A stretch of 64,000 nucleotides of DNA from a virus. Taxonomy: Duplodnaviria > Caudoviricetes. Below, one piece after another: positions 6,000 through 47,893 of the stretch (its first letter is position 1; every line of letters begins with the position of its first letter). The translations under genes were made by a program, and so were the position numbers. Under the pieces are notes generated by a model. The model ran no database searches, was not told where the DNA came from, and saw only the letters and a program-made list of their open reading frames with translations. Location of the stretch: positions 64,001 to 128,000 of the IMG/VR virus record IMGVR_UViG_3300027917_000018. One strand, 5' to 3'.

Positions 6000-6748
6000 T
6001 GGCCTTGAGGATTTACGACGCGGGCGGCACGGACATTCTGGCCAACAAGCCAGCGGAGGTCACCTTTCGGATTCCGAGCGGCACCTATGCGGTGGCCGTC
6101 TATGCCGAAATCGTGGAGGATGACCTGTGTCTGCCCTACCGGCTGCTCAAGGCAACGTTGGATTGGAATGACGGAACCCAGCCCGTCTCCTTCCCCGAGA
6201 CGAACTATTCGACCTCGCCTTTAATCGTAAACACTTCTCGCCGACTTGGGTTTGGCGCGTACGCGATCACGCTCATCGTGGAGAACAACCGCCTGCCGAT
6301 CCGTGATTCTGAAAAGATCACGTTCTATGTGAACGTAGAGCCGGTCCAGGCGACGACCGAGCAGACCAAACTGTTGCTCGGGCCGATCTTGCCGAAGGAC
6401 ACGGGATTGCCCAATCGGCAGACGTGGATGTTCGACGTGGAAAACGACATCGCGCTCCTGGCCAGCTCCGTGAAAATGCTGCTGTTGACGACCAAGGGTG
6501 AGCGGGTGATGCAGCCCACCTACGGCACGAACCTGCGGCGCATATTGTTCGAGCTGAACATCGAGAGCGTGGAGTCGATCGTGCAACAGGAAATTTCGAC
6601 CGCCCTTGCCGCCTGGGAGCCTCGGGTGGTGATTCAAAGCCTTGGAATCACCCGGTACCCCAATGAGCGCAAAGTCGAGGTCCTAGCGTCCTTCCTGGCG
6701 AGAACTGCGGCCCAGCCTTTCGAGGTTCAGTTGAGCTTTGGCTCCTGA
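5999..6748 (+). CDS. Baseplate wedge subunit, gp25/GPW-like, with N-terminal PKD-like domain
   Basis: SVKMLLLTTKGERVMQPTYGTNLRRILFE...AWEPRV is the typical gp25 signature; LDWNDG PKD-like strand. Confidence 0.85.
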   Translation: MALRIYDAGGTDILANKPAEVTFRIPSGTYAVAVYAEIVEDDLCLPYRLLKATLDWNDGTQPVSFPETNYSTSPLIVNTSRRLGFGAYAITLIVENNRLPIRDSEKITFYVNVEPVQATTEQTKLLLGPILPKDTGLPNRQTWMFDVENDIALLASSVKMLLLTTKGERVMQPTYGTNLRRILFELNIESVESIVQQEISTALAAWEPRVVIQSLGITRYPNERKVEVLASFLARTAAQPFEVQLSFGS

Positions 6749-7080: not shown

Positions 7081-8547
7081 ATGAGCGACATCCGCCCACT
7101 TGATTTGCCGACCGCTGCCGGTATGGACTTCGGCTCGGGAGACGTGCGCCATTTCAGCGAAGACGACGCCGTAAACGTGCCGGGGCTCCAAAACCCGACG
7201 CGGATGCTCGCGGAGCGCGATAATCTGATCGCGGTCAAGCTCAACGAGGTCGTCACGGAGGTCAACAACAAGGAGCAGGTTGTCCCGCTGCCCATTCCGC
7301 GCACCGGTATTCCGTCCTCGACCGAAGAGGTTGTCTTCAATTTCAAAATTCCCGACGGCTTTGAGGCCCGCATTCTGAGCGCCGCCATCGGCAGCAGCCC
7401 CGTCACGACCGACCTGACCCTCAAGATTTACTTCAGCACCGGCTACGGCAACACCACTGGAACTGAGCTGGTCTCGACCACTGGCTCTTTCGACAGTGGC
7501 GTGGCCTTTTACAACACGGGCGAGTTCATCGTCGCCGTGGTCAACGATGGCAGCCAAAGCCTCGACGCCGTGGCCAGCGTGATCCTAACGGTCCGTCCGA
7601 TGGGCTCCGAGGCCAGTCTCCTGGTCGGCAGCATCATTCGGGGTGCTCGCGGCTATACGGGCGGTAGGGGCGACAAGGGCGACAAGGGTGATCCGGGCGT
7701 TGGCGGCGCTGGCACGCCTGGCCTTTCCTGGGCCGGAACTTTCTCCTCCGCAACCAGCTACAATCCTCCCCAGGCGGTTTATTACACACGCGAGAACGGA
7801 TCGACCGAAAGCTACATCGCGATTGCGGCCAATCCGTCCCCGGCCAAGCACCCGACCGACTCGGCTTATTGGGACCCGCTGGCGGCGGGTGCGGCGGCAG
7901 TGCTGACGTGGCGCGGGCCTTGGACCTCGGGGCAAAACTACTATCTGAACGACGCGGTTAAGCACAACGGGTCCTCTTACATCTGCATTCAGACGGTCAT
8001 CAACAGTACCGTCAACCCGGCCACGGATACGACAAATTTTGACCTCCTGGCCGAAGCCGGTACCGATGGCACCGACGGCACTTCAGTCTCCTTTGCCAGC
8101 CAGCCTGTTGGTTTCCCGGCGGCGGACGGCGGCAGCCTCGCCTCCACCGCTCCGGCGGAGGGCGACTACGAGCTGATCAATGTTGGCGGTTTGCCCGGAA
8201 CGATCACCGGCAAAGCCACGGAGTACTGCATCCTGGGCGGGCCGGACGACAGCTACCCTGGCCGTTACGTGATCATGAACGGGGCCTTCCTGGCGAAGTT
8301 CGTGGGCACGCTCAGCATCACCATGCCGGTGTCCTACTACACCCAGCAGCAGTACACCCAAAGCAATGTCCAGGTGACCGCTACCGCTCAGGGCGATCAG
8401 CCCGTGCCGTTCCCTTCACCGGCAGGAACGCACGCGGGCGGGGTGCGGATCGATTGGCCGTCCTCGACGCAGGTCGACATCATTGTGACCGAGACCGTGG
8501 GAGAGCAAAAGGTCGTCGTCAATGCGACGGGATTTCAGATAGCCTGA
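7081..8547 (+). CDS. Fibre-like virion protein with collagen triplets and two carbohydrate-binding-like repeats
   Basis: GARGYTGGRGDKGDKGDPGVGGAGTPG (G-x-y x9); WxGxF/W-x4-Y-x4-V-x3-GSxY repeats; GTAGTTA at 7070-7076. Confidence 0.75.
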   Translation: MSDIRPLDLPTAAGMDFGSGDVRHFSEDDAVNVPGLQNPTRMLAERDNLIAVKLNEVVTEVNNKEQVVPLPIPRTGIPSSTEEVVFNFKIPDGFEARILSAAIGSSPVTTDLTLKIYFSTGYGNTTGTELVSTTGSFDSGVAFYNTGEFIVAVVNDGSQSLDAVASVILTVRPMGSEASLLVGSIIRGARGYTGGRGDKGDKGDPGVGGAGTPGLSWAGTFSSATSYNPPQAVYYTRENGSTESYIAIAANPSPAKHPTDSAYWDPLAAGAAAVLTWRGPWTSGQNYYLNDAVKHNGSSYICIQTVINSTVNPATDTTNFDLLAEAGTDGTDGTSVSFASQPVGFPAADGGSLASTAPAEGDYELINVGGLPGTITGKATEYCILGGPDDSYPGRYVIMNGAFLAKFVGTLSITMPVSYYTQQQYTQSNVQVTATAQGDQPVPFPSPAGTHAGGVRIDWPSSTQVDIIVTETVGEQKVVVNATGFQIA

Positions 8548-20147: not shown

Positions 20148-22337
20148 TCATGTGAGCGTATCTACGCCCCACCAACCCGCCGGGCGAGCGGCTATGACCA
20201 TCCAGCCCGTTGCCGCTACTGAAGTCCAGTCTCGCAGGTCGTAGGACGCGTCGTTGAAAAGCGTGTATGGGAAGCCGTTTGGCCCCAAAAGGTCCCTGAG
20301 CTGCGTGTGCAATGCGACCGCCTCGTCCCTGAGCCCGGCACCGACCCAGGCGTGAACCACGCCCGCCGTGCCCTCAATCCAGAGGCCGCCGGATGCGCCC
20401 GGATACCCGTAGTCCGGGCTGTAGGGCGTGTAGCCAACGAAGGTGCCGGACTGGGTGCCGTAGTAGGTGCCGCTGAACTCGCCGACCGGGGCAAAACTGC
20501 CGAAAAACGTGCCGTTGCTGTAAATGCCTCGGGTTTGGTAGTCGGGAATGATGTCCAGGACCACGGTGCCGTGCGGAGCGCCCACGTCCCGGACCACGCT
20601 GGAGTACCAACTGGCCACGTCCAGGGCGTGCGCCGTGTCCGGGCTGCTGTTGTTGGTCATGCCCTGGTAGGCCCGTGGCGGGCTGTAGGTGCCTTGCCAG
20701 AAGGTGGTGTTGAGGACCTGGCCGATGCGCGTGCCGTAGTCGTGCCACGCCTGGCTGCCGGTCATGGCGTAGTATTCCTTGGCAAACCAATAGGCGTCGG
20801 TATTGTGCTCGGTCGAGACCCACGGAACCTGGTAGGTGCCGTTGAATTCCCACACCGGAAGCTGATAGCGGCCCCTGCCGCCCCGGAAGGTGGAGACCTG
20901 CTTGTCATCGCTATCGACCCAGTACTCCGTGACCATCGTTCCGGCGAACTCGCCCAGGACGTGCTCGATCGAGCTTTGCAGGTCGGGCGGCACGGTCGGG
21001 GCCTTGTTCAGGTACCAGGCCAGGGCCGAGGCGCACCAGAAGTTGGCCCCGGTTCGGTAATACGGATCGGGAGGAACGGCGGAGACCGTGTTTACCGAGA
21101 AAGCCCACTGGCGATCCAGCGGGGTCCACGCGGCGACGAGGCCCCGCGACCAGCGCTCGGCGGTCTCCCAGTCCTCCATGCCCACGGCGGCCACAATTGA
21201 GAGAGCCTGATCGTAGGTGTAGGTGCGCTTGTAGAGGTAGGGCCACGACGGATCGCTCTGGTCCATGCCGTAGGAGCGGAGCAAGCCCTGACCCCAGTAA
21301 TGCTCGGCGATGAGGTTCTCCTCGGGAACCTTGACCAGTTTCAGGGTCTTGTAGCCAGGGGTGCCGAACGGGATTGAAAACCCGCCCAGCACCGCCCCGG
21401 ATTGCCCGACCGTGGTGCCATACGCGTTGGCCACCAAATCTGCGCGCTTGATGCCTGAATCGGTCTCCGCCACGAATCCGTAAACGAACGGCGCATAGGT
21501 GTGGCCGAAGATGCCACCGTCGCTTTTGCGGATGAGCTTGGCGATCTTGGTGCCCGTAAACGCTTGGGCCGCCGCCCAAGTGCCGTCGCCTTGGATCGTG
21601 CCGGTGGACTGGTAGTAATCCTGGTCGGTCTTGCTAAAGACCTGAATTTCATAGTCAGCGTACTGGCCGGGGTCCAGGCCCTCCACGCGGCCCACGATGG
21701 GGCCGAAGCTGCCTGAATACGGGTAGGGCTCGCTGAAAAGCACGGCTCCCGTAAACAGATTCGAGCGGGAAATCAGGTAGGGGATGTCGCTGACCGCGTA
21801 GATGTCCACGCGGAGGTCAGTGCCTGTGAAGTCGGACGGAAAGGCGGTGGCGCGACCAGCGGCACTTCCAGTATAGCCGTAGTCGTAGGTGCCCGTCTGG
21901 CTGTAGTCGAAGGTGCCGTCCGGGTTCGTTCCGTAGAAAACCAGTTCAGCCCGGTTGGGCGTGGCGCTCCCGACGAAGTAATCAACGTCGCTGGTGTTGT
22001 ATCCCCGGATCGAGTACTCGGTGTAAGCGTCGGTGCCGATGCCGGTGACGATGCCCGACACTTCGCCAACGTAGCTGGGCGCGTACGATCCTGTAAACGA
22101 AAGGCCGCTGGTGCCGTTGTAGAAGGTCGGCGGGTTCTCCAGCGTTTTGAGGACGGCGAAGGTTTCGTTTACGAAGTCGGCATCAAAATAGGCAAGCGGT
22201 GGCGTGGGAGGCGTGGGCGGAGCTGGATTGACCGGCCCGCTGCCATCGCTGCGGCCCGTGCGGCTGGTGTTCCAATAGGACGGAGCTGGCCATTTGTCCC
22301 CGGTCCTATCGAACGGGCGGATGACAAACGGAGGCAT
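20148..22337 (-). CDS. Six-hairpin (alpha/alpha)6 glycosidase-like protein with beta-rich N-terminal half
   Basis: YTYDQAL, WVSTEHN, LWIEGTAG, SVAATGW motifs; aromatic-rich. Confidence 0.65.
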   Translation of the reverse strand: MPPFVIRPFDRTGDKWPAPSYWNTSRTGRSDGSGPVNPAPPTPPTPPLAYFDADFVNETFAVLKTLENPPTFYNGTSGLSFTGSYAPSYVGEVSGIVTGIGTDAYTEYSIRGYNTSDVDYFVGSATPNRAELVFYGTNPDGTFDYSQTGTYDYGYTGSAAGRATAFPSDFTGTDLRVDIYAVSDIPYLISRSNLFTGAVLFSEPYPYSGSFGPIVGRVEGLDPGQYADYEIQVFSKTDQDYYQSTGTIQGDGTWAAAQAFTGTKIAKLIRKSDGGIFGHTYAPFVYGFVAETDSGIKRADLVANAYGTTVGQSGAVLGGFSIPFGTPGYKTLKLVKVPEENLIAEHYWGQGLLRSYGMDQSDPSWPYLYKRTYTYDQALSIVAAVGMEDWETAERWSRGLVAAWTPLDRQWAFSVNTVSAVPPDPYYRTGANFWCASALAWYLNKAPTVPPDLQSSIEHVLGEFAGTMVTEYWVDSDDKQVSTFRGGRGRYQLPVWEFNGTYQVPWVSTEHNTDAYWFAKEYYAMTGSQAWHDYGTRIGQVLNTTFWQGTYSPPRAYQGMTNNSSPDTAHALDVASWYSSVVRDVGAPHGTVVLDIIPDYQTRGIYSNGTFFGSFAPVGEFSGTYYGTQSGTFVGYTPYSPDYGYPGASGGLWIEGTAGVVHAWVGAGLRDEAVALHTQLRDLLGPNGFPYTLFNDASYDLRDWTSVAATGWMVIAARPAGWWGVDTLT

Positions 22338-24633: not shown

Positions 24634-25073
24634 AACTCGACGCGGAAACCCATGACTACATCGCCCAACGAGCGCAGTGGTACTTCGACGTTTACCCGGC
24701 GGGCTACCCATACTCGGTTGAGAATTTCGTTCTCACCGGGGACGGCGTGGACGATCTTGATTTCGCCATCACGCGGATCGAGGCGTACGGAACCATCCGC
24801 CCGCCTCGCATTGTCTGCGAGGTCGGCACGAGCGGCACGGTCATGCTCGGGAACGCCTTTCCCAAATATCTTCCCTGCGACGTTGAAGATGTTAGAGCAA
24901 TTCGTGAAGCGTTTATCGCATGGTATGGGACGGTCAACAGGCCGGACATCTACGCGACCGGGACCGGTGCGTCTATGGAGACACCCTGCCAGCCACAAGC
25001 TGTTTGCGTGTGGTGTACCACCGGGTCCCTCACCGGGACTTACGCGGGTACGGTCTTTCCGGGACAATGCTGA
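24630..25073 (+). CDS. Hypothetical protein
   Basis: ATG 24630 coupled to upstream stop; Cys cluster near C-terminus. Confidence 0.6.
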   Translation: MKLDAETHDYIAQRAQWYFDVYPAGYPYSVENFVLTGDGVDDLDFAITRIEAYGTIRPPRIVCEVGTSGTVMLGNAFPKYLPCDVEDVRAIREAFIAWYGTVNRPDIYATGTGASMETPCQPQAVCVWCTTGSLTGTYAGTVFPGQC

Positions 25074-27103
25074 TGAAGAAGGTTACGGAAGCGGACGGCG
25101 GAGCTGAGCGCGCCCGGCGCGACTTCAAAGCCATGATTCAGGCCCAGCGCGACGCTGAGGCCGCCAAGGCGCGTGCCCGCGAGGCGGAACGGGCCACGGC
25201 CCGCCACCAAAAGGTCTTGGATAACGGGCCGCCGCTGCGGGACGGCGAGGAGGATAACCCGAAGATGATGTGGTTTCGGGAGAACCTGGAATGGGAGCCG
25301 CACCCGGAACTGTGGTGCCCGCCGAGTACTGGCTACAGCGACGGCAGCGGCAGCTTCGTCGAGCGCTCCAACGCCAAGTGGTTCACCGAAAACATGGGTG
25401 AAATCTTCAGCCAGGTCGGCGGCGGCTACGGCACGGTATGGACCGGCATTACCGATGAGGACCGGTGGGTCATCACCGACGAGCAGTTTGAGCAGCTCAA
25501 GGATGTGGTCGAGGGCCTGGAGGGCTACCCCATCATCGACGAGCAGCTCTACAGCGAAATGGAGTACGACGCCTACAACGAGTACTACCAGGGCGAAGGG
25601 CGCAAGGACCTGCGCCAGGCGCTCCTGCAAAGGTTCTCCGGCGACCCCGAGGCGCAGATGGCCGTGCGCTTCAGCTCGGTCGACGCGTTCGACCACCTGG
25701 CCTGGAATAGCGACATCAGCCAGGCTTTTGAGACAGAAACGGGCGGCGGCGTTTACTTTCGGGCCAACGCGGCTGCCGAAGGCTTCAACCGGGACGAGGT
25801 CGTGGACCTGGTCAGCGAGGAGGAGGCCCGCACGGCAATGGCCAGCGCGTGGGCCGAGCGTATTCAGCCTGGGTGGATCGACACGCTGGCTGAGGTTCGA
25901 CGCGACGATGAACGGCTGGTCAACACGGTCGCGGAGCTGGAGCCCTCGTCAGGCTTCAATTTGTTTACGAAATTGATGGTTAAGGTTGGAGCCGACTGGG
26001 AATGGGATCAGCGGGAGGATGAGGCCAGGGACGCGTTCGACATCGATAGTGATTCTATGAAGGAAATGGCGCAGGCACTGGAGCCGGGCATGCTGAGCGG
26101 TCTTCGCCCCGAGGACCCGCGCCAGCTGCGCTTGGCCATCGAGCAGATTCTCAATGGCGAGCCGACCTTCACGCTCTTCGAGGGGTTTAAGGAGAAGAAG
26201 CAGCTTTTCGTCAGCCAAGGCGCGAGCCCCGAGGAAGTCGACGCACTCCTTACCCAGTTCAAGCGCCTGAAGCAACGCGGCCTGCTCCAGGGTGAGGAGG
26301 CCGACATCGACCGGTACACTGACTTGGATTCGCTGCGGCAGGCGGTCGAAGCCGCGTCGCAGAAACAGAGCAAAACGGGGCGCAAGCGGGAGGTTCGGCA
26401 CAAAGAGGCTATCGTGCTCCGGGATGACGAGGAGATGCAGATTGTCGTTCCGAAAACCTGGGCCGCCGCGAAAGCCTACGGCAAGGGGACCAAGTGGTGC
26501 ATCAGCATGAAGGAGTACCCGAGCCACTGGACCGAGTACCACAAGAAGCTCGCCAAGCATTACATGATCTGGAACAAGCGGCTGCCCGCGCCCACGATGG
26601 GCACCCACGGCGAGCCGATCGGCGGCAGCCCGCTCTACAAGATTGCCGTTACGATTTACCCGGACGGCCATTCATCGATCTACAATGCGCAGGACCAGGC
26701 CATCACCGAGCAGGACCTGAAACGAGCCACCGGTTTCAGCCTTTCGGATTTCAAGTCTTGGGAGGAGCACGAGCTTGCGGGCCGCGACCTGTTCCGCCTG
26801 ATGGGCGCGAAGAACGTGCCGTTCCGCGAGCGTGTGGAGCGGATCGGGGCCGAGGGCTGGGCCGAGATGGGCAAGAATGTGGCCATGCGCGAACTGTGGT
26901 CCAGTGACCAGGCCGAGGACCTGAAGGGCAAAAGCAAAGAGGAGGTCGACGCGGCCTGGGACGAGTTCTGGCAGAAGGCCCGGCAGGAGCTGCTGGACTA
27001 CCCGGACGACGAGGACTACGAAAAGAGCCTGAAGTTCTACGTCGAGTCGCTGCGGCTGCCGCCCGGCAAACAGCTGGCACTGCTGGAGGACGCCGATGAA
27101 TAG
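25067..27103 (+). CDS. Multi-domain protein (YPIIDE domain plus GTKWC-motif domain)
   Basis: LEGYPIIDEQLYSEME; IVVPKTWAAAKAYGKGTKWCISM; linkers with LFE/LLE. Confidence 0.7.
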   Translation: MLMKKVTEADGGAERARRDFKAMIQAQRDAEAAKARAREAERATARHQKVLDNGPPLRDGEEDNPKMMWFRENLEWEPHPELWCPPSTGYSDGSGSFVERSNAKWFTENMGEIFSQVGGGYGTVWTGITDEDRWVITDEQFEQLKDVVEGLEGYPIIDEQLYSEMEYDAYNEYYQGEGRKDLRQALLQRFSGDPEAQMAVRFSSVDAFDHLAWNSDISQAFETETGGGVYFRANAAAEGFNRDEVVDLVSEEEARTAMASAWAERIQPGWIDTLAEVRRDDERLVNTVAELEPSSGFNLFTKLMVKVGADWEWDQREDEARDAFDIDSDSMKEMAQALEPGMLSGLRPEDPRQLRLAIEQILNGEPTFTLFEGFKEKKQLFVSQGASPEEVDALLTQFKRLKQRGLLQGEEADIDRYTDLDSLRQAVEAASQKQSKTGRKREVRHKEAIVLRDDEEMQIVVPKTWAAAKAYGKGTKWCISMKEYPSHWTEYHKKLAKHYMIWNKRLPAPTMGTHGEPIGGSPLYKIAVTIYPDGHSSIYNAQDQAITEQDLKRATGFSLSDFKSWEEHELAGRDLFRLMGAKNVPFRERVERIGAEGWAEMGKNVAMRELWSSDQAEDLKGKSKEEVDAAWDEFWQKARQELLDYPDDEDYEKSLKFYVESLRLPPGKQLALLEDADE

Positions 27104-27803
27104 CCAGGCCCTCCGTCTCGCCCGATGCCTGCTGGAGCAGAAGTTCAGCTACAGCACAACGCAGATCAATCTGCCGTCGCCGCTCGACGATTTCGTCGTG
27201 AAGTGGGGCCGGATGCACGTGCAGGACCAGGACCTCTACTACTTTGACGATGGCGGCGGTGGCCGTGAAACCGAACCTCATATCACGGTGCTTTACGGGC
27301 TGCTGGAACCCGAGCCCAGCGATGCGCTCCGGCAAATCGTCCGCCGGACTTCGCCCTTCTGGATTCGGTTGGGGCCGACGAGCCTCTTCGAGAACGAGGA
27401 CTTTGACGTGCTCAAGTTTTCCGTGGTGAGCCCCGACTTGGAGGCGCTCAGCGGTGCGATCCGCCAGGCGTGCCCAAACGAGAACAAGTACCCGAAGTAC
27501 ATCCCGCACGCCACAATAGCCTACGTGAAAAAGGGCCGCGCCAAGCACTTGAACGGGCTGTACCCGTTCGAGGGTTATCCGCCCGTTCCCAGCGAGTTCG
27601 AGGCTAACACGTTGATTTTCAGCGCTGCCGGGGATGACGACGACCCGAAGCGCCGAACAGTGAGGCTTCCATTCAACCGGACGAGGAACGAAAGTCTCAA
27701 TCAGGACAGCCCATTCCAGGGTTTATGGTTCCCGGCAGACGCGTCCGAGCTGGCCAGCAAGATTCTCGGACTCAAGAAACAAGACCCAAAGCAGGTTGTT
27801 TAG
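27096..27803 (+). CDS. 2H phosphoesterase (T4 gp57B/Acb1-like)
   Basis: Two H-x-T motifs: EPHITVLYG and PHATIAYVKKG. Confidence 0.85.
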   Translation: MNSQALRLARCLLEQKFSYSTTQINLPSPLDDFVVKWGRMHVQDQDLYYFDDGGGGRETEPHITVLYGLLEPEPSDALRQIVRRTSPFWIRLGPTSLFENEDFDVLKFSVVSPDLEALSGAIRQACPNENKYPKYIPHATIAYVKKGRAKHLNGLYPFEGYPPVPSEFEANTLIFSAAGDDDDPKRRTVRLPFNRTRNESLNQDSPFQGLWFPADASELASKILGLKKQDPKQVV

Positions 27804-27836
27804 CACTCATCCTGCGAAGGGGTAGTTAGAGCAGGC

Positions 27837-30800
27837 ATGAGCTTAATCAACCTGACCGAAGATTTCCTCTACGACCGGCTGCCCGAGGGGCTGATCCAGC
27901 TGGACGAGAGGGGTCTGATCCAGGCTGTCCTCGGTGGGTTTCAGGACCGCATCGAGGATTTGCGCTTCTACGCCAAGCGCTTCCAAAGCTTCTACACGCC
28001 GATCCCCGAGGCGCTTTATCGCCCAAACGTCGTGCTGGTCACTTATCGCACCGATCAGGGGCGCGACATCACGCGGAGCATTGACCTGGAGACCGAAACG
28101 CCGCAGGACGGGACGAGCGACCTGCTGGTATGGGCCGCCACGCAGCTGAATGTCGATACGGACCGAGTCTCCAACGCCCGCTATGGCGTGGACCCGCTGC
28201 GAGACATCGAACCCAGCCTGCTCGATTACCTGGCCACCAACGTCGGGGCCGTCCTCTACGCCAGCGCGATCCTCAAGGAGAGCCCGTCGGTTACGACCAG
28301 CACGGGCACACTGACCGCCGCCAATTACGCCTACAGTAAGCTCTTGGAGACGTACTTCCCTCGGCTCAAGTTCAAGGGCACGGCCAAGAGCTTCGAGGCG
28401 CTTGGCAAACTGCTGGGATGGGATGACGTGCGGGTCACGCCGCTTTGGGGCCGGGTGAGCCCACGGCTGCCAAACGATCCAGGCAGCGACGTGAACGACC
28501 CGGACTTCTCGGAGATGCCGGAATTCTGGCCGCAGCAAACGATCGGGCCTTTTTACGACCCGCTCGACCAGGCCGATGGGCCTTTTTACGACTGGACCGG
28601 GACCGCGTCGGCGGGCACTGCGTCAACGAAGTTTTACAGCCAGGTCGTAAACGGATTTCAGCCGTACGTGGAGGTTCTCGTGACCGGGACCGCCTCCGGC
28701 ACGGTCATCCAGCACCCGTCCAGCGGCAGTTACGTGCTGGCCGACGGAGCGCCGCACCAAAAGGCGATGGTCGACGCCGGGGACATTCAGTTCCGGGCGC
28801 TGGGCGAGGGCGAAAGCTACAACGGCGTCACGGTCACCGTCTTCGACGTGGTGGACGCGGACTTGCGGGGCGTCAACGTGGATGGACGCCTTTCCTCGAT
28901 CAAGTACCGGACCAGCTTCTACAACCTGGGTCTGACCATCACATCGGAGAAGGCGCAAGCGGTTTTCGGAACCCTGACGGCCAAGGCCAACAAGGACCTG
29001 GCGGTCGCGCCCCACGAGTACCAGAGCTTTGTCGGCAACCTCACGGCGGTCAGCCCCTACCGGCCATTCACCAGCGGCACCGTGGCCCTGGACACGCTGA
29101 CCACGGACTGGCTGACGCCGTTTACCGGGACGATTTCAACCTACACCGAGCGTCGGGAAGCCGGGTTGGGCGATCGGCAGGAGAATTGGGACGACCTGTC
29201 CCGCGCCGGAGCCCAGGCCACGCAGGCGCTGGAGGAAGTGCGGGCCGCCACCCGGCGTCCTCGCGTCAGCTCCTTCGGCTATCTGCAAAAGGACCAGGTG
29301 GGCTACGCGCCCTATCCGGCGCAGGACTGCCTGTTTACACTTTACGGTTCGATCGTCGCGGGGACGTATCACGGCACGTTCAGCACTTACCCGCTGCCGC
29401 CCTATTACGCCGACGTAGGCTATGTGAGCGGTGGCTTTGTGACCGTTTTCGACGCGGGGACCAATCCGGCCTTTCCAGGCATCGTCACCTATCAAAATTG
29501 CGCGGACGGCGGGACGATCGCGGGTACGATCGGCTACACCGGCACAGGCACGAACTCCTATTTGTTTACGGCGACGGGCACGTGGCCTCAATGGGGTACT
29601 GTTTGTGCGCTGTTCACGGTGACCGACACTGAAGTTGTCCGGCCAGAGCCCTTCAGTTGGTCGACCGGCACGACGGTCCTGGCTGCCTTGGCGGATTACG
29701 GCCTGGCGGGCACGAACCACGATGAGGTCGCCGCGCTCATCAACAGCTGGAGCCCGCAGGCGGTCGTGGCGATGGGCGACAACAACTACCCGGACGGACA
29801 GGCGGCCACGATTGCGGCCAATAACGTCGGGTACGAGAGCTACATTGTCAGCGACCGTTTCTTCCCGGCGATCGGCAACCACGATTACTGCTGCTCCTCG
29901 ACCGGGACCGACCTCACGCCGCACCTGACCTATTTCTTTGACGGCACCGCTCCAGGCGAAGGTGGTCGCTACTACAGCCGCCGGATCGGCAACGTCGAAA
30001 TCTTCTGCCTCAACGCGGGCTGGAACAGCAGCCAGGCAGCGGCAGCCGTCGGCGACCCTTATTACGTGACCACGCAGGAGCCCAGCGGGAACAGCCTGAC
30101 CAGCACCCAGGCGCTCTGGCTCAAGCAGGCCCTCCAGGAATCGACGGCGACGTGGAAAATCGTTTACAGCCATTACCCGCCCTACGCGTCGGAGACCACA
30201 ACGAACAACTATGCGCCCGGTTACCCAAGGCTGCGCTGGCCGTTCAAGGCGTGGGGTGCTGATCTGTACCTGGCCGGGCACGTTCACGCCTACGAGCGGC
30301 TGGAGGTCGATGGCCTGACCTACATTACGTGCGGCGTGGGCGGGGCGGGAAATCGCGTCTTCGACGGTTACGTGTCTCCAGGGAGCGTGGTCCGCTATGC
30401 GCCCTTGGGCGCAACGACCGAGCATGGGGCGCTCCGCATCTTCGCGACCGGCCAAGGGCTCCAGATTGATTTCATTCTCGACACCGGCCAGGTCATCGAC
30501 CGCGTGTTCTTGGACGCCACCAAGAAGTATCTGGCGCGGCCCGAGGACGAGATTGACGACGATGAGGTCTACGGCACCGCCGACATGTACCCGTGGCGGC
30601 GCGACATCGTGGGCAACGGCGAGCTGGTCGAGCAGGACTACTACACGGCTGGCACCAACAACCTGGCCGTCTCGATCCTGGAGAAGACCATGACCGTGCC
30701 GGACCAGACCGGTGCGGAATACGACGTTTACGCGATTAAAGGCCAGGAGCCTTACCGTCTGGTGGCGGCGCTTCGCGCCACGAGTCCGGCCTCGGATTAC

Positions 30801-33125
30801 GTGCCCGGCCAGCCCAGCGTGGCCTTCAGCGGCACGTTCCGGGATCAGGCTGGCCTCGGGGCCGACGACCTCAATCCGTACGTCAACCCACACGACCCGG
30901 ACAATTTCCGAACCCAATTCAGCCGGATTGACTACGACACGGTTTTCAATCCCGGCTGGGCGATTTACAACGCGGGCCTGGTTCAGGGCGTTTTGGTCGC
31001 CGACCCGGACAAGTTCGGCGGGGCCTACCACACCGAGAACCTGGTGGGCTGGCTGCCGTTTAACGAGCACCCGCTTGATGACCTCACTGTCACGGATCAC
31101 GCCCGCACGCTGGCTGTGAGCCAGTTTCTGAACGCAGCACCCGAGGACCGCGTTTGGGACGACACCTTTGGGTGGGTCCTCTACATGCGGCCCGGTGCCA
31201 CACTTCAGGTTTTCGCCGACCGGGAGATGACGACCGAGGGGCTGATGACCTTCTGGATCAACGTGGACTCGACCACAACCGGCCCCACACAGGAAATCAT
31301 CTTTGAGTTCGGCCCGATGCGCTGGACGTTGGACGCCGGGGCCAACCAGATCACGTCCTGGGGCAATGTTCCTGGGGTTGGCTGGACGGTTAGCTCCAAC
31401 TACCCTGTGACGCCCGGCCAATGGCATCTGTTCGGTATGGGATTCACCACGACCGCCGACGTGTTCCTCGATGGCGACCTGTCATCGTTCAACTATTCGG
31501 CGCTCGGCGGAGGCGGCCTGGTGGCCACAACCGACGACACGGTTCTGTCGCTGTCCGGCAAGTCGCGGCGCTACAAGATTCACGACCTGCGCATTTGGAC
31601 CGAGGTCAAGACCTACGGTCAGATGGAGCTGGTCCACAACTACCAGCCGAGGCCGACGCAAACCCTTTACAGCCTGGGCCACATTCTGGCCGCCAACGAT
31701 GGCGACCGGTTTGGGCTGAAAGTGCTGCCCCGTGGCTGGCTGGTTCCAGCACAGCTTCCGGCCTGGGTTCGCACGCCCAAGTACGCCCGCGTGGAGCGCT
31801 ACGACGGCGGCGGGGAATACCAGGGCGAGGCGCGTTTTAAGGAGGTCGGGCTCGGCGGCGGACAGATGCCTCCCTACAATTGGCAATTGGGCACGCAGGG
31901 GCCGACTTTGACCGGCGCTGGGACTGTGGTGGTAAGCACGCAGATCGGCGCGTACCCCGGCACGAACGCCTACTGGGGCAAAGATTCGATTCCCGGCACC
32001 TATATCGAGTTGAGCGGTTCGACGGCGAGCGGGTCGATCGCCGTGGTTCAGACGTGGGGAAGCGGTGGACTGCCGTGGCCGCACCACATGGAGGCGACCA
32101 ATCCCTGCTTTGACGCGGTGTGGGTGCCGGACCAAACTGGCCACGTTTACAAAGTCACGCTGGAGGCTGGCTCGGATTACACCGCCAGGTTTGTGGCGAC
32201 TCCGGGCACCTACGGTAACCAGGAGGAGACCGGCGCGCACGTGGGTTTGAGTGGCACGACGGCGGCGAACTACCTGGTCGTGACCGGCTACGGATCGGTT
32301 GTTCAGCAGCCCTACGCGGGGACACTTACCACGCCTCCGCTTTACATGTACCTCCATGACGTGCTGCTGGAGGATGTGGGCGGCTCCACGACCTACAACC
32401 GGTGGACTGATCCGAACGTGGATGGGCAGTCCATTGGCTACCCGACCATCGATCAAGCTGGTGAAATCTCGCTGACCAACAGCACCAGCCTGCGGGCCGG
32501 AACCTACCGGCTCAAGGTGACCAGCGGCAACTTGGGCAAGGTTGACGAGGCGTTCGACGGATTCAGGGTGCTCATTACCGTTGGTGACGCCACCATCGAC
32601 CGGACACTGCTGGCAGGCTACGGCGGCAACAACTTCACCGGCACGGATGAATTTGAGTTCAGCCTGGACCACGACATCGACGGTGAGTGGTTGCTCACTT
32701 TCGACTGGACCAATCCCTATGAGGACGTGACACGGGGCACGATCCGCCAACTGGTCATTTACGGCTACCAGCTCCGGCGGCTGGAGACCAACATTTACAA
32801 GGTTGACGTTCAGGTCGCCGGGACGGAGCCCGACGTGGAACGCATGGCTATCTTTGGTGAGACGGGCGACGGCGGCGTGACGCCCGGCGGCTGGATGGCC
32901 CAGTACAACGACTACGGCACGGTCGCGACTTGGCGGCACGAGGGCACGGTTTACCCCTCCAACGACACGCTGACCAGCCGGTACCCGTTGGCGAATTTGC
33001 TCACCGGGATGACCGGGGACAAGCGGGAGGACGTTCTATTCACTGTCTACGGCACCCGTAGCTGGTTTGTCCTGCCGACGGCCTCGACAACCACCTTGAG
33101 CGGGACCTCGACCATTGTGACATGA
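27837..33125 (+). CDS. Large baseplate/tail protein with inserted metallophosphoesterase and LamG domains
   Basis: N-terminal LLDYLA...LKFKGTAKSFEALGKLLGW wedge-like block; DYG/GDNNY/GNHD/H/GHVH motifs; GWLPFNE...IHDLRIW; GTAGTTA at 27822-27828. Confidence 0.8.
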   Translation: MSLINLTEDFLYDRLPEGLIQLDERGLIQAVLGGFQDRIEDLRFYAKRFQSFYTPIPEALYRPNVVLVTYRTDQGRDITRSIDLETETPQDGTSDLLVWAATQLNVDTDRVSNARYGVDPLRDIEPSLLDYLATNVGAVLYASAILKESPSVTTSTGTLTAANYAYSKLLETYFPRLKFKGTAKSFEALGKLLGWDDVRVTPLWGRVSPRLPNDPGSDVNDPDFSEMPEFWPQQTIGPFYDPLDQADGPFYDWTGTASAGTASTKFYSQVVNGFQPYVEVLVTGTASGTVIQHPSSGSYVLADGAPHQKAMVDAGDIQFRALGEGESYNGVTVTVFDVVDADLRGVNVDGRLSSIKYRTSFYNLGLTITSEKAQAVFGTLTAKANKDLAVAPHEYQSFVGNLTAVSPYRPFTSGTVALDTLTTDWLTPFTGTISTYTERREAGLGDRQENWDDLSRAGAQATQALEEVRAATRRPRVSSFGYLQKDQVGYAPYPAQDCLFTLYGSIVAGTYHGTFSTYPLPPYYADVGYVSGGFVTVFDAGTNPAFPGIVTYQNCADGGTIAGTIGYTGTGTNSYLFTATGTWPQWGTVCALFTVTDTEVVRPEPFSWSTGTTVLAALADYGLAGTNHDEVAALINSWSPQAVVAMGDNNYPDGQAATIAANNVGYESYIVSDRFFPAIGNHDYCCSSTGTDLTPHLTYFFDGTAPGEGGRYYSRRIGNVEIFCLNAGWNSSQAAAAVGDPYYVTTQEPSGNSLTSTQALWLKQALQESTATWKIVYSHYPPYASETTTNNYAPGYPRLRWPFKAWGADLYLAGHVHAYERLEVDGLTYITCGVGGAGNRVFDGYVSPGSVVRYAPLGATTEHGALRIFATGQGLQIDFILDTGQVIDRVFLDATKKYLARPEDEIDDDEVYGTADMYPWRRDIVGNGELVEQDYYTAGTNNLAVSILEKTMTVPDQTGAEYDVYAIKGQEPYRLVAALRATSPASDYVPGQPSVAFSGTFRDQAGLGADDLNPYVNPHDPDNFRTQFSRIDYDTVFNPGWAIYNAGLVQGVLVADPDKFGGAYHTENLVGWLPFNEHPLDDLTVTDHARTLAVSQFLNAAPEDRVWDDTFGWVLYMRPGATLQVFADREMTTEGLMTFWINVDSTTTGPTQEIIFEFGPMRWTLDAGANQITSWGNVPGVGWTVSSNYPVTPGQWHLFGMGFTTTADVFLDGDLSSFNYSALGGGGLVATTDDTVLSLSGKSRRYKIHDLRIWTEVKTYGQMELVHNYQPRPTQTLYSLGHILAANDGDRFGLKVLPRGWLVPAQLPAWVRTPKYARVERYDGGGEYQGEARFKEVGLGGGQMPPYNWQLGTQGPTLTGAGTVVVSTQIGAYPGTNAYWGKDSIPGTYIELSGSTASGSIAVVQTWGSGGLPWPHHMEATNPCFDAVWVPDQTGHVYKVTLEAGSDYTARFVATPGTYGNQEETGAHVGLSGTTAANYLVVTGYGSVVQQPYAGTLTTPPLYMYLHDVLLEDVGGSTTYNRWTDPNVDGQSIGYPTIDQAGEISLTNSTSLRAGTYRLKVTSGNLGKVDEAFDGFRVLITVGDATIDRTLLAGYGGNNFTGTDEFEFSLDHDIDGEWLLTFDWTNPYEDVTRGTIRQLVIYGYQLRRLETNIYKVDVQVAGTEPDVERMAIFGETGDGGVTPGGWMAQYNDYGTVATWRHEGTVYPSNDTLTSRYPLANLLTGMTGDKREDVLFTVYGTRSWFVLPTASTTTLSGTSTIVT

Positions 33126-34393
33126 ATCAGGTAGGCGACGACAAGACGTTTTACGTGGCGGCCCACACCAGCGGTGCCCGCTACGTCTGGAAGTACTGGG
33201 ACGGGGCCACGGCGGTCTCGGCGCAGAGCGCTGGCAGCAACGTCAAGCGCCTCAACCTGGGCGGCAATCCGGCGGAGGGTTTCACCGTGCCGGTGCGGTG
33301 CGAGGTCGTCGACCCGATCAAAGGCGAAACCGTTTACATCACGACGGGCCGCCTCCCGGTCAACAACCAGCCGACGCTTTACGGCAGCCCGACGGTCAGC
33401 AACAACGACGCGGCTTTCCCCTACCAGACCACCATCGCGATCCGGGCTTATGACTTGGAGGACGCCGGAATTCAGTTCCTGTGGTACTCCGGCAGCAACC
33501 CGGTTAGCGGGTTGGACACGACTTCGGCGAGCATCAGCGTTGAGGGCACCTACTACGGCACGCTGACGGGCCTGACCCGCCAAACCTACCTCAACCAGTT
33601 TAGCACGACGATTTACGGATCGGGCACGACGATGACCTGCAAGATCATCGACGGGGACGCCGGGACGCGCAGGCTGAATTTCGACTTCCGGGGCTACGAT
33701 CCGGCGGCCCCGTCCTTCTCGGTGGCCGCCACGCCCGACGCGCTGACCGCGCAAGCTACCGCCCTGACGACTCAGTTCATCGCGCCGGGCCAGGTGGCCA
33801 ACTTGAGCGCCTACGCCTATGATCCGGTGCCCGGCCAGTTGGTGTTTACGTGGGACCTGAACGGCACCAACGGCTGGAGCGCCCCGGACATTCCCTTCAT
33901 CTACGCCAACGACGGCACGTCGGTCGAGCAGGGCTACAAGAGCGAGTGGCAGCGGCAGTTGGAGGACGAGACGGTCGGTGGCCGAAAGCGGGTGATTGTT
34001 TGGGTGACCAATCCGACCACGAACAAAACCACCAGCACCTATTTCGACATCAACACGGCCATTAACCAGGCCCCGAGCTTCAGCAGCGTCGACATGTACG
34101 ACCCCATTAGCGGGGAGCAGATCACCAGCATCACCAAGGCGGCCTTGCCCACCAGGACCCTCGTCCGGTTTTCCGGCACGGCCAGCGATCCCAACTCGGA
34201 CGTGGTGACCTACAAGTGGGATTTCACGGTTCCGGTTTCGCCCAGCACCTACACACTTTATGGGCGCGATGCGTTCGTCGATGTCAGCGATTGGCCGTCC
34301 GGGGCCTACAGCACTTTGGGTATCGTCACGGCCTACGACCGGTTCGAGCAGGCCAGCAGCCCGGCCAACATTCCCAGTCTGACGGTGACTTAA
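33122..34393 (+). CDS. Virion protein with PKD/Ig-like repeats
   Basis: NNQP...AYDLED..IQFLW, AYDPVPGQLVFTWD, NQAP...ASDPNSDVVTYKWD repeats. Confidence 0.75.
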   Translation: MNQVGDDKTFYVAAHTSGARYVWKYWDGATAVSAQSAGSNVKRLNLGGNPAEGFTVPVRCEVVDPIKGETVYITTGRLPVNNQPTLYGSPTVSNNDAAFPYQTTIAIRAYDLEDAGIQFLWYSGSNPVSGLDTTSASISVEGTYYGTLTGLTRQTYLNQFSTTIYGSGTTMTCKIIDGDAGTRRLNFDFRGYDPAAPSFSVAATPDALTAQATALTTQFIAPGQVANLSAYAYDPVPGQLVFTWDLNGTNGWSAPDIPFIYANDGTSVEQGYKSEWQRQLEDETVGGRKRVIVWVTNPTTNKTTSTYFDINTAINQAPSFSSVDMYDPISGEQITSITKAALPTRTLVRFSGTASDPNSDVVTYKWDFTVPVSPSTYTLYGRDAFVDVSDWPSGAYSTLGIVTAYDRFEQASSPANIPSLTVT

Positions 34394-47326: not shown

Positions 47327-47893
47327 ATGAGTATTTGGGACCGAGACTTTTCCATCAGGCTGACGAGCAGCCGGGTCATTGGCAAAACCCGCAAGCTCAA
47401 GACCCGCTGGAGGGTTGAGGAGGGGCAAGACCTTCAAGCTTTCCATTCTGCCGACGCCGAGGACGCGTTGGCCGTTGAACTGGGATACGAACCGCCACCC
47501 GGAGTAAGCACCATGAGACAAATCCACATCAACAAGACCGAACTGCTCGCGATCGTGCGGAAGAACCGCGCCGAGCACCGCGACATCTTCCTGAAGTCGC
47601 AGAAGAAGTACCGCCAGGTCGCCATCAAGGCCCTGGACGCCCAGCTCAAGGCGGCCCGTAACGGCAGACCGTTCCAGCTTGCCAGCCTGATCCAGCTCGA
47701 AGCGCCCGAGGACCACACCGAGGAATACGACCGAGCGATCAAGATGCTGGAGATGAGCACCGACGAGACCATCCTGATCACCAACGACGAATTCAAGTGC
47801 TACGTCGAGGACAAGTGGCACTGGAGCCGCGAGTGGGCGGTCAGCAACATGCGCTACACCAAATCCGCCAAGCTGTCCGCCTTGGCAAGATGA
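47327..47893 (+). CDS. Hypothetical protein (alternative start 47513)
   Basis: INKTELLAIVRKNRAEH helical domain. Confidence 0.6.
   Translation: MSIWDRDFSIRLTSSRVIGKTRKLKTRWRVEEGQDLQAFHSADAEDALAVELGYEPPPGVSTMRQIHINKTELLAIVRKNRAEHRDIFLKSQKKYRQVAIKALDAQLKAARNGRPFQLASLIQLEAPEDHTEEYDRAIKMLEMSTDETILITNDEFKCYVEDKWHWSREWAVSNMRYTKSAKLSALAR

What the first reader, a model, noticed from the sequence alone, without database searches (positions are those of the whole stretch)
29670..30530. Intact purple-acid-phosphatase-type enzyme inserted in a giant baseplate protein
Seen: inside the 1762-aa late protein all five metal-ligand blocks are present in order (ADYG, GDNNY, GNHD, SHYPP, GHVH), upstream of a LamG domain (about 31.0-31.6 kb). 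Known: these motifs define calcineurin-like/purple acid phosphatases. Virion depolymerases are usually glycosidases, lyases or peptidases. Inference: a baseplate-mounted phospho(di)esterase that strips phosphate from lipid A, LPS, capsule or S-layer at attachment, which is unusual for a structural protein.
Basis: partly seen in the sequence, partly recalled or inferred. Interest (0 to 1): 0.8.

Follow-up and report, generated by a model that had tools for sequence, protein, structure and literature searches.

The report
Phosphatase cassette in phage baseplate protein
A giant tail-baseplate protein of an uncultured 203-kb T4-like phage carries a complete, apparently working purple-acid-phosphatase enzyme spliced in as a removable cassette, while sister phages carry a different phosphatase (PhoD) on the same protein, which suggests these viruses cut phosphate esters on the host surface when they attach; no activity has been measured.

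Summary
ORF 27837-33125 (+, 1762 aa) holds all five purple-acid-phosphatase (PAP) blocks in order, with all seven metal ligands (D620, D648, Y651, N681, H779, H815, H817). Pfam Metallophos scores 44.5 bits against a cut-off of 21.5. The predicted fold matches pig PAP at Z 26.9.

- **Cassette:** the domain (aa 607-896, nt 29655-30524) is a clean ~290-aa insert between flexible linkers. 14 of 54 family members have it, and about 26 have no more than 22 residues at that site.
- **Not a mis-assembly:** eleven other full-length family members, known from other contigs, align straight through the whole insert.
- **PhoD alternative:** a sister clade carries a PhoD-type phosphatase at the C-terminus instead. 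No protein has both.
- **Baseplate identity:** this is supported only indirectly. The N-terminal 480 aa are homologous (hhalign probability 100%) to a family in which 16 of 28 members match Pfam Tail_P2_I (P2 gpI class). Members of that family sit beside gp25 genes. P0001 is the only such gene in its genome.
- **Lectin domain:** a ConA/LamG-type domain (aa 1058-1271) is confirmed by fold.

Enzyme activity, presence in the virion and the substrate are all untested. I class it as a new variant of a known kind; the nearest precedent is the GlpQ-like phosphodiesterase domain in the baseplate spike of phage 812. Earlier notes of this scan report PAP/PhoD enzymes in particle genes of other uncultured phages.

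The parts
27837..33125 (+). Whole ORF, 1762 aa (P0001): modular giant baseplate-wedge-class protein
   Evidence: 53 homologs of 1009-2333 aa on phage-sized contigs. Only 173 relatives among 1.84 billion representative proteins.
27837..29306 (+). N-terminal conserved module, aa 1-490, P2 gpI / TssG-class (Tail_P2_I-homologous core around aa 105-220, with an inserted beta domain)
   Evidence: Family alignment A1 has 42% mean column identity. hhalign of A1 against the distant family A4 gives probability 100%, E 5.5e-61 over 417 columns. 16 of 28 A4 members match Pfam PF09684; P0151 scores 28.7 bits against a cut-off of 20.6. The wide fold search's top 50 includes about 13 baseplate entries at Z 5.5-8.2.
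29307..29642 (+). Ig-like beta-sandwich, aa 491-602, just before the insert
   Evidence: Model m19ce157a31af. Sandwich-type matches at Z 6-7.8 over aa 491-602.
29655..30524 (+). Purple-acid-phosphatase (small ACP5-type) domain, aa 607-896. Metal ligands D620, D648, Y651, N681, H779, H815, H817; helper H682. Flanked by low-confidence linkers aa 590-610 and 895-917.
   Evidence: Free-standing homologs of 260-520 aa are 36-42% identical over more than 90% of the domain.
30585..31007 (+). Conserved beta-rich domain, aa 917-1057, fold not assigned. This is the first part of the C-terminal arm that all family members share.
   Evidence: The BLAST mapping resumes at about q896 in all homologs. Model.
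31008..31649 (+). ConA/LamG-like lectin jelly roll, aa 1058-1271
   Evidence: VIA Z 19-20, rmsd about 2.5 A, against the lectin-like jelly rolls of clostridial toxin binding domains; Z 17.8 to the AbnA carbohydrate-binding domain; Z 17.0 to the cyanopodophage Pan3 tailspike 9vyh_q. Homologs P0015 and P0013 carry weak or precomputed Laminin_G_3 hits.
31704..33122 (+). Conserved C-terminal beta-rich module, aa 1290-1762, no known family
   Evidence: Alignment A5 has 38% mean identity. No significant Pfam or PDB sequence match. Its fold was not tested separately.
33122..34393 (+). Downstream 423-aa ORF whose start overlaps the stop of the giant ORF (ATGA); a conserved neighbour and probable partner
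   Evidence: weak PKD_4. The same neighbour (413-515 aa, faint PKD) follows the homologs in L004, L005 and the P0032 contigs.

Best explanation
P0001 is the gpI/TssG-class wedge protein of the contractile-tail baseplate of an uncultured T4-like jumbo phage. T4 gp7 belongs to the same structural class; that is published knowledge, not tested here. The N-terminal ~490 aa would anchor the protein in the baseplate. The rest forms a peripheral, host-facing arm: an Ig-like domain, a ConA/LamG lectin domain and a conserved C-terminal module. Between the Ig-like domain and the arm, a complete bacterial-type small purple acid phosphatase has been inserted on two flexible linkers.

Shown: the domain is complete, it keeps all seven metal ligands, it is a gain-or-loss cassette, and a sister clade carries a PhoD phosphatase at another site of the same scaffold instead.

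Inferred: the enzyme is active and is carried on the virion. On adsorption it would hydrolyse phosphate mono- or diesters in a host envelope polymer. Candidates are a teichoic-acid-like or other phosphodiester-linked glycopolymer, a capsule, or phosphorylated LPS. The neighbouring lectin domain would hold the glycan. The effect would be to expose the receptor or clear the way to the membrane.
For: PAP identity and integrity:
- Motifs are present in order. Pfam Metallophos scores 44.5 bits against a cut-off of 21.5.
- All 16 PDB profile hits are PAPs. Fold match Z 26.9; Foldseek E 3e-13.
- Six of the seven ligand columns are at least 90% conserved across the 14 inserts and the seventh (H815) is kept in 12 of 14, against 36% mean column identity.

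Cassette:
- Flanks q1-605 and q896-1735 are conserved in all homologs.
- About 26 homologs have no more than 22 aa at the site.
- Both linkers have pLDDT below 50.
- Free-standing ~300-aa homologs are 36-42% identical.

Selection for a phosphoesterase:
- 14 of 54 carry PAP, 14 of 54 carry a PhoD domain (C-terminal in the three re-scanned), and none carries both.
- The two groups are split by a branch with 99/99 support.

Baseplate class:
- hhalign A1 against A4, probability 100%.
- 16 of 28 A4 members match Tail_P2_I, one above Pfam's cut-off; 5 of 54 of the protein's own family match weakly.
- Distant homologs lie 0.6-2 kb from GPW_gp25 genes.
- P0001 is the only match to that profile in the 203-kb genome.
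- The genome also encodes gp25-like, Baseplate_J-like and T4 Gp23 proteins.
- The wide fold search's top 50 includes about 13 triplex or baseplate chains.

Host-facing arm:
- Lectin fold, and a cyanopodophage tailspike match at Z 17.
- The family is 35-52% identical, against 57-84% for the gp6-like protein of the same phage group; some members of both families have longest contigs of identical length.
Against: - Pfam Tail_P2_I does not match P0001 directly.
- T4 gp6, gp7 and gp10 show no detectable sequence similarity.
- The baseplate fold matches are only Z 5.5-8.2 with rmsd 7-11 A, and Foldseek finds nothing for the N-terminal module.
- In this genome the gene is not next to other baseplate genes: the gp25-like gene is 21 kb away and the gp6-like gene 91 kb away.
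- There are no proteomic, expression or activity data, and the host is unknown.
- One family member (P0052) has lost most metal ligands. Three others have single changes: P0004 lacks the Tyr, and P0002 and P0006 have GDSH. Catalysis is therefore not indispensable everywhere.
- About half the family carries no phosphatase at all.
Confidence: 0.58

Rival explanations
1. The PAP domain is kept as a binding or structural module, a pseudoenzyme-like receptor binder for phosphorylated surface groups. It would not turn over substrate during infection.
For: PAP-fold proteins without catalysis exist: GAP50 (3tgh) is the second-best fold match at Z 25.1. Family member P0052 keeps the domain with a degenerate site (GNFG, GNNNY, GVKD, VILP, GHVG). 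The domain sits next to a lectin domain in a receptor-binding-type arm.
Against: P0001 keeps all seven ligands plus the GNHD histidine, and 10 of 14 inserts keep all seven. The sister clade uses a different phosphatase fold branch (PhoD) at another site, which points to selection for chemistry rather than shape.
Confidence: 0.15
2. The protein is not a fixed baseplate part. The phosphatase would act elsewhere: as released or injected cargo, on nucleotides or signalling molecules, or in phosphate scavenging.
For: The conserved upstream neighbour carries a 2H / Acb1-like phosphoesterase module. The genome mixes structural and metabolic genes. No direct Tail_P2_I hit in P0001 and no virion data.
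Against: Transitive gpI homology, and it is the only gpI-class gene in the genome. The lectin and tailspike-like domains fit an extracellular binding role. There is one chance-like match to the cargo leader word, at aa 944 and not at a domain border.
Confidence: 0.12
3. The insert is a recent, nearly neutral passenger, a captured bacterial gene with no role in infection.
For: The distribution is patchy, with several losses inside the PAP clade: P0010, P0011, P0012, P0014 and P0050. About half the family lacks any phosphatase.
Against: The insert is retained across lineages only 33-53% identical to P0001's in the insert itself, with the ligand columns conserved. PhoD occurs in parallel in the other clade.
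Confidence: 0.08
4. The long ORF is an assembly chimera that joins a bacterial phosphatase gene to a phage gene.
For: None beyond the general risk of metagenome assemblies.
Against: Eight full-length proteins from other contigs and sources (Logan, NCBI, ENA) align continuously across both junctions, at 48-52% identity. Three further full-length members and one contig-truncated one also carry the insert.
Confidence: 0.01

Closest known systems
Small (35-kDa, ACP5/TRAP-type) purple acid phosphatases, e.g. human 1war and pig 7ov8/1ute, and their bacterial ~300-aa homologs
   Same: The same five motif blocks with seven metal ligands. The same fold: Z 26.9, TM 0.67 by target. The same size, with no N-terminal fibronectin-like domain.
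   Different: Here it is not a free secreted enzyme. It is a domain spliced into a 1762-aa phage structural-class protein. Metal content, colour, pH optimum and substrate are unknown.
P2 gpI / Mu gp48 / T6SS TssG / T4 gp7 class of baseplate wedge ('triplex') proteins (Pfam Tail_P2_I PF09684)
   Same: The N-terminal module is homologous to a family whose members match PF09684. It is single-copy in the genome and co-occurs with gp6/J-like and gp25-like genes. Large peripheral C-terminal additions occur in T4 gp7 and in Afp12/Cis12-type proteins (the last point is from my own knowledge of the published structures).
   Different: No direct Pfam hit and no detectable similarity to T4 gp7. The core carries an inserted beta domain. 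At 1762 aa the protein is far larger, and I found no report of an enzyme domain in this class.
[quoted passage not shown] Also phi29 appendage gp12, reported to degrade teichoic acid (my own knowledge, not checked here).
   Same: A phosphate-ester-cleaving domain carried on the host-facing end of a phage tail, thought to cut a phosphodiester-linked wall polymer.
   Different: A different fold (TIM-barrel GDPD or beta-helix, against a dinuclear metallophosphoesterase sandwich). A different carrier (central spike or appendage, against a wedge protein). A Gram-positive host is known there; here the host is unknown.
Bacillus subtilis PhoD (2yeq; Pfam PF09423)
   Same: Related dinuclear metallophosphoesterase fold (Z 21.0). 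PhoD domains occupy the C-terminus of sister proteins of this family.
   Different: P0001's own domain is PAP-type, not PhoD: Pfam PhoD scores 14.8 bits against a cut-off of 27.

Membership tests
Purple acid phosphatase (metallophosphoesterase superfamily) | Five blocks GDxG / GDxxY / GNH(D/E) / VxxH / GHxH supplying seven metal ligands (D, D, Y, N, H, H, H) | tested here: met
   ADYG, GDNNY, GNHD, VYSH and GHVH at aa 619-817. They align block for block with human ACP5.
Purple acid phosphatase (metallophosphoesterase superfamily) | Significant match to the Pfam Metallophos model, with nearest solved relatives being PAPs | tested here: met
   44.5 bits against a cut-off of 21.5. 10 of 10 phmmer hits and 16 of 16 profile hits in the PDB are PAPs.
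Purple acid phosphatase (metallophosphoesterase superfamily) | Beta-alpha-beta-alpha-beta sandwich fold of PAPs | tested here: met
   Z 26.9, rmsd 3.1 A, 262 aligned residues to 7ov8_A. The top five matches are all PAP-family. Foldseek E 3e-13.
Purple acid phosphatase (metallophosphoesterase superfamily) | Fe(III)-M(II) centre with Tyr-to-Fe charge transfer (purple colour) and phosphatase activity | not testable with these tools
   Needs purified protein.
P2 gpI / TssG / T4 gp7-class baseplate wedge protein (Tail_P2_I) | Sequence homology to the Tail_P2_I domain | tested here: inconclusive
   Direct test: no hit in P0001; 5 of 54 family members match weakly, best E 1.3e-4. Transitive test: positive. 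A1 against A4 gives probability 100%, and 16 of 28 A4 members match PF09684, one at 28.7 bits against a cut-off of 20.6.
P2 gpI / TssG / T4 gp7-class baseplate wedge protein (Tail_P2_I) | Fold like the gpI/TssG chain of solved baseplates | tested here: inconclusive
   About 13 of the top 50 wide-search entries are baseplate or injection-system chains, and short gpI-size chains align almost fully. But Z is only 5.5-8.2 and rmsd 6.6-11 A. Foldseek finds nothing.
P2 gpI / TssG / T4 gp7-class baseplate wedge protein (Tail_P2_I) | One gene per genome, together with gp6/J-like and gp25-like baseplate genes | tested here: met
   It is the only match to profile A4 in the 203-kb record. Baseplate_J-like and GPW_gp25-like genes are present. 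Several members of the two families have longest contigs of identical length. Distant homologs lie beside gp25 genes.
P2 gpI / TssG / T4 gp7-class baseplate wedge protein (Tail_P2_I) | Physical presence in the baseplate, bound to two copies of the gp6/J-like protein | not testable with these tools
   Needs virion proteomics or cryo-EM.
T4 gp7 itself | Detectable sequence similarity to T4 gp7 | tested here: not met
   hhalign of A1 against T4 gp7: probability 0.5%. I therefore file the protein under the wider gpI/TssG class, not as a gp7 ortholog.
ConA-like lectin / LamG | Jelly-roll lectin fold; Pfam Laminin_G_3 | tested here: met
   The fold is met: Z 19-20 over aa 1058-1271. The Pfam model does not hit P0001 at E <= 0.1. 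Homolog P0015 scores 24.1 bits against a cut-off of 27.6.
PhoD-like phosphatase (PF09423) | Match to the PhoD model above its cut-off | tested here: not met
   14.8 bits against a cut-off of 27 for P0001. Sister proteins P0015, P0018 and P0037 do meet it, at 80-86 bits, but at their C-termini.

The most novel reading that the evidence does not exclude
Phosphate-ester hydrolysis is a general, so far unrecognised class of virion-borne 'depolymerase' or receptor-modifying activity in environmental contractile-tailed phages. PAP and PhoD would be interchangeable cassettes plugged into the gp7/gpI-class wedge protein, and swapping or losing them would retarget the phage to hosts with different phosphorylated surface polymers.
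Probability: 0.35. Interest if true: 0.75.

Novelty: new variant of a known kind. Interest (0 to 1): 0.6.

Why it matters
Known tail-borne enzymes are almost all glycosidases, lyases, esterases or peptidases. The few phosphodiesterases known belong to other folds, and all are from phages of Gram-positive hosts.

Here one baseplate scaffold has recruited two different dinuclear metallophosphoesterases, in two clades and at two different sites. That is comparative evidence that cutting phosphate esters matters for infection in a whole group of uncultured jumbo phages.

If the activity and its target were found, three things would follow: a new enzyme class for phage depolymerases, a marker for host-surface chemistry (phosphodiester-linked polymers or phosphorylated LPS), and an example of enzyme cassettes in the gp7/gpI wedge protein.

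Tried and rejected
- **Phage records:** blastn and tblastn of the ORF against 50,697 phage records gave no DNA match and one weak 27.7% protein piece in an unannotated record. PHROGs gave no family for P0001 or for eight distant homologs.
- **N-terminal profile against the PDB by sequence:** nothing significant; T4 gp10 2fkk at E 0.86. hhalign against T4 gp6, gp7 and gp10 gave probabilities of 0.5-3.6%.
- **N-terminal model in other libraries:** Foldseek PDB, BFVD and AFDB clusters, and the VIA re-alignment of Foldseek's own list, gave no clear family. The Atlas feature search scored below 0.8.
- **Own genome:** no Pfam T4_gp9_10_N, Tail_P2_I or Phage_sheath_1 match. These are absences only.
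- **Complex prediction:** a job with the gp6-like protein (P0308, full length) and P0001 aa 1-212 ended with no verdict, 0.31 against a mark of 0.32. It counts neither way.
- **C-terminal module, aa 1290-1762:** no Pfam or PDB sequence match.
- **Host or donor clues:** cluster names of free-living PAP homologs gave no organisms.
- **Cargo leader word:** one match to A-x-x-[VIL]-L-E, at aa 944 and not at a domain border. Rejected as chance.
- **Literature:** searches for PAP, PhoD or calcineurin-like domains in baseplates found no report of such a fusion.
Full report
**1. Observation**

The window is bases 64001-128000 of a 202,975-bp IMG/VR virus record, which CheckV estimates as 89% complete. 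ORF 27837-33125 (+) encodes 1762 aa, stored as P0001.

| Block | First residue |
|---|---|
| ADYG | aa 619 |
| GDNNY | aa 647 |
| GNHD | aa 680 |
| SHYPP | aa 778 |
| GHVH | aa 814 |

The blocks fit the purple-acid-phosphatase pattern GDxG / GDxxY / GNH(D/E) / VxxH / GHxH. The seven metal ligands are D620, D648, Y651, N681, H779, H815 and H817, with H682 as helper.

- Pfam Metallophos matches aa 634-819 at E 3.2e-11, 44.5 bits against a curated cut-off of 21.5. PhoD is sub-threshold at 14.8 against 27.
- By sequence, all ten PDB matches of the domain are PAPs.
- With a profile of the 14 homologous inserts (alignment A3), all 16 PDB matches are PAPs. The best is human ACP5 1war at E 1.1e-12, aligned across all five blocks.

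**2. Structure**

An AlphaFold2 model of aa 590-1762 was built with a 54-row alignment and has mean pLDDT 76.8.

- **PAP domain, aa 607-896.** Z 26.9, rmsd 3.1 A, 262 aligned residues to pig PAP 7ov8_A. The five best chains are all PAP-family. PhoD 2yeq follows at Z 21.0 and other metallophosphoesterases lie lower. Foldseek gives E 3e-13 and TM 0.67 by target.
- **Linkers.** The domain is bounded by low-confidence stretches at aa 590-610 and 895-917.
- **Lectin domain, aa 1058-1271.** A ConA/LamG-like jelly roll with Z 19-20 and rmsd about 2.5 A. It also resembles a carbohydrate-binding domain of the arabinanase AbnA (Z 17.8). The wider stretch aa 956-1301 resembles the tailspike of cyanopodophage Pan3 (Z 17.0).
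- **C-terminal module, aa 1290-1762.** Conserved, but it matches nothing by sequence.

**3. It is an insert, not an assembly error**

53 homologs of 1009-2333 aa were found, many on contigs of 100-260 kb.

- BLAST mapping shows q1-605 and q896-1735 conserved in all of them. q606-895 is present in only 14 of 54 proteins: P0001-9, 13, 16, 33, 48 and 52.
- About 26 proteins have no more than 22 residues at that point. For example, P0010 goes from s616 to s622.
- Eight full-length proteins from other contigs and sources align continuously through both junctions, and three further full-length members and one truncated one also carry the insert. This rules out a chimera.
- The insert has hundreds of free-standing homologs of about 260-520 aa, 36-42% identical over more than 90% of its length. 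JGI labels them tartrate-resistant acid phosphatase type 5. It therefore looks like a whole bacterial-type small PAP captured as a cassette.
- Across the 14 inserts, six of the seven ligand columns are at least 90% conserved and the seventh (H815) is kept in 12 of 14, against 36% mean column identity. There are exceptions. P0052 has lost most ligands, P0004 lacks the tyrosine, and P0002 and P0006 read GDSH. P0016 has two extra long inserts inside the domain.

**4. A second phosphatase on the same scaffold**

Fourteen other family members carry Pfam PhoD. In the three I re-scanned it lies in a ~450-aa C-terminal extension, not at the insert site:

| Protein | PhoD position | Protein length |
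|---|---|---|
| P0015 | 1628-1895 | 1969 |
| P0018 | 1451-1778 | 1865 |
| P0037 | 1706-2027 | 2127 |

A maximum-likelihood tree of the N-terminal modules separates PAP-bearing from PhoD-bearing proteins by a branch with 99/99 support. No protein has both. Phosphatase-free proteins are scattered in both halves, for example P0012 next to P0008. Two different phosphoesterases, recruited at two sites of one scaffold, are the best available argument that the chemistry is selected. The losses show that it is accessory.

**5. What the carrier is**

PHROGs, Pfam and the PDB give nothing direct for aa 1-610. A model of aa 1-610 has pLDDT 78.5. In the search against one representative chain per PDB sequence cluster, done without Foldseek, it gives only middling scores, Z 5.5-8.2 with rmsd 6.6-11 A. 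However, about 13 of the top 50 entries are baseplate chains of contractile systems: diffocin 8v3w_E, pyocin R2 6u5b_m, Mu 9ki1_H, phiCD508 9gb2_M, P1 9ay5_a, A-1(L) 8kea_b, Bas63 9ndy_M, phi812 9euf_C, AlgoCIS 7aeb_G, Anabaena CIS 7b5h_AD, Streptomyces CIS 9gtp_E and T6SS TssG 6n38_G. The short gpI-sized chains align almost end to end.

The sequence evidence is stronger.

- The family profile finds only 173 proteins in 1.84 billion. These include a distant tier of 1000-1350-aa proteins.
- 16 of 28 proteins in that tier match Pfam Tail_P2_I, best E 1.4e-7. P0151 scores 28.7 bits against a cut-off of 20.6.
- The two family profiles align with probability 100%, E 5.5e-61, over 417 columns.
- Two distant members lie 0.6-2 kb from GPW_gp25 genes in T4-like contigs.

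In the window's own genome, the distant profile matches only P0001. The genome also has a gp25-like gene at window 5999-6748, a Baseplate_J-like gene of 786 aa (P0308) and a T4 Gp23-type capsid gene. The gp6-like protein is 57-84% identical across the same phage group, while P0001's family is 35-52% identical. That difference is expected for a peripheral, host-contacting part.

I therefore read P0001 as the gpI/TssG-class wedge protein. The link of T4 gp7 to that class is published structural knowledge that I did not test, and T4 gp7 itself shows no sequence similarity.

**6. Mechanism**

- **Shown:** an intact PAP site, a flexible two-linker tether, an adjacent lectin domain, cassette behaviour, and the PhoD alternative.
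- **Inferred:** the domain sits at the baseplate rim and hydrolyses phosphate esters of a host envelope polymer during adsorption, with the lectin domain binding the glycan.
- **Substrate:** the choice among teichoic-acid-like polymers, phosphodiester-linked capsules and phosphorylated LPS or lipid A cannot be made here, because the host is unknown.
[quoted passage not shown] That is a different fold on a different baseplate protein.
- **Literature:** I found no paper describing a PAP or PhoD domain in a baseplate protein.
- **Earlier scan notes:** unchecked notes report PAP or PhoD enzymes among particle genes of other uncultured phages, so the theme may be wider than this family.

**7. Limits**

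No activity, metal content, expression, virion location or host is known. The baseplate assignment is transitive. A complex prediction with the gp6-like protein gave no verdict and counts neither way.

**8. Verdict**

It is a new variant of a known kind, and I score interest at 0.6.

Noticed in passing
window 27096-27803 (+), with 24920-27103 (+) upstream: The 235-aa ORF just upstream is a 2H / 2'-5' RNA-ligase-type phosphoesterase (PF13563, E 5.7e-13). It is 43% identical to the middle (aa 624-812) of a 1212-aa protein that precedes the P0001 homolog in relatives; there the precomputed Pfam also lists Acb1 (weak). So two phosphoesterase-bearing genes are conserved neighbours. The 727-aa ORF before it shows no similarity to the rest of that 1212-aa protein.
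   Followed up: partly
window 33122-34393 (+): This 423-aa ORF starts inside the stop codon of the giant ORF (ATGA overlap) and has a weak PKD hit. The same neighbour (413-515 aa) follows the homologs in three other contigs. It is probably a co-translated structural partner.
   Followed up: partly
window 27823-27828: The word TAGTTA lies 8 bases before the ATG of the giant ORF. The spacing here differs slightly from the 4 or 6-7 bases it reports.
   Followed up: no
proteins P0052, P0004, P0002, P0006 and P0016 (homologs, alignment A3): P0052 keeps the PAP fold region but has lost most metal ligands, so it is a likely pseudoenzyme. P0004 lacks the tyrosine ligand. P0002 and P0006 read GDSH instead of GHxH. 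P0016 has two extra inserts of about 45-65 and 140 aa inside the PAP domain.
   Followed up: partly
homologs P0008, P0009, P0012, P0014, P0037, P0039 and P0044: Other accessory modules occur on the same scaffold: CarboxypepD_reg-like, a vWA-like domain, a PA-IL lectin-like stretch and an SdiA-regulated-type domain. The protein appears to be a general docking platform for swappable modules.
   Followed up: no
window 20148-22337 (-) and 7081-8547 (+): Two tail-fibre-like ORFs (phrog_13714 at E 3e-38; phrog_5073 at E 1e-18) lie scattered among helicase and topoisomerase genes and a replication-initiator-like DNA-binding gene. The structural genes of this phage are not in one block.
   Followed up: no
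window 5999-6748 (+): The gp25-like baseplate protein carries a ~150-aa N-terminal extension before the GPW_gp25 domain. In distant relatives the gp25-like genes are 343-347 aa.
   Followed up: no
window 47348-47482 (genome 111348-111482, +): A second, short match to the T4 Gp23 capsid model (24.4 bits, profile positions 134-178) inside a 240-aa open frame. It may be a vertex-protein relative or a fragment.
   Followed up: no
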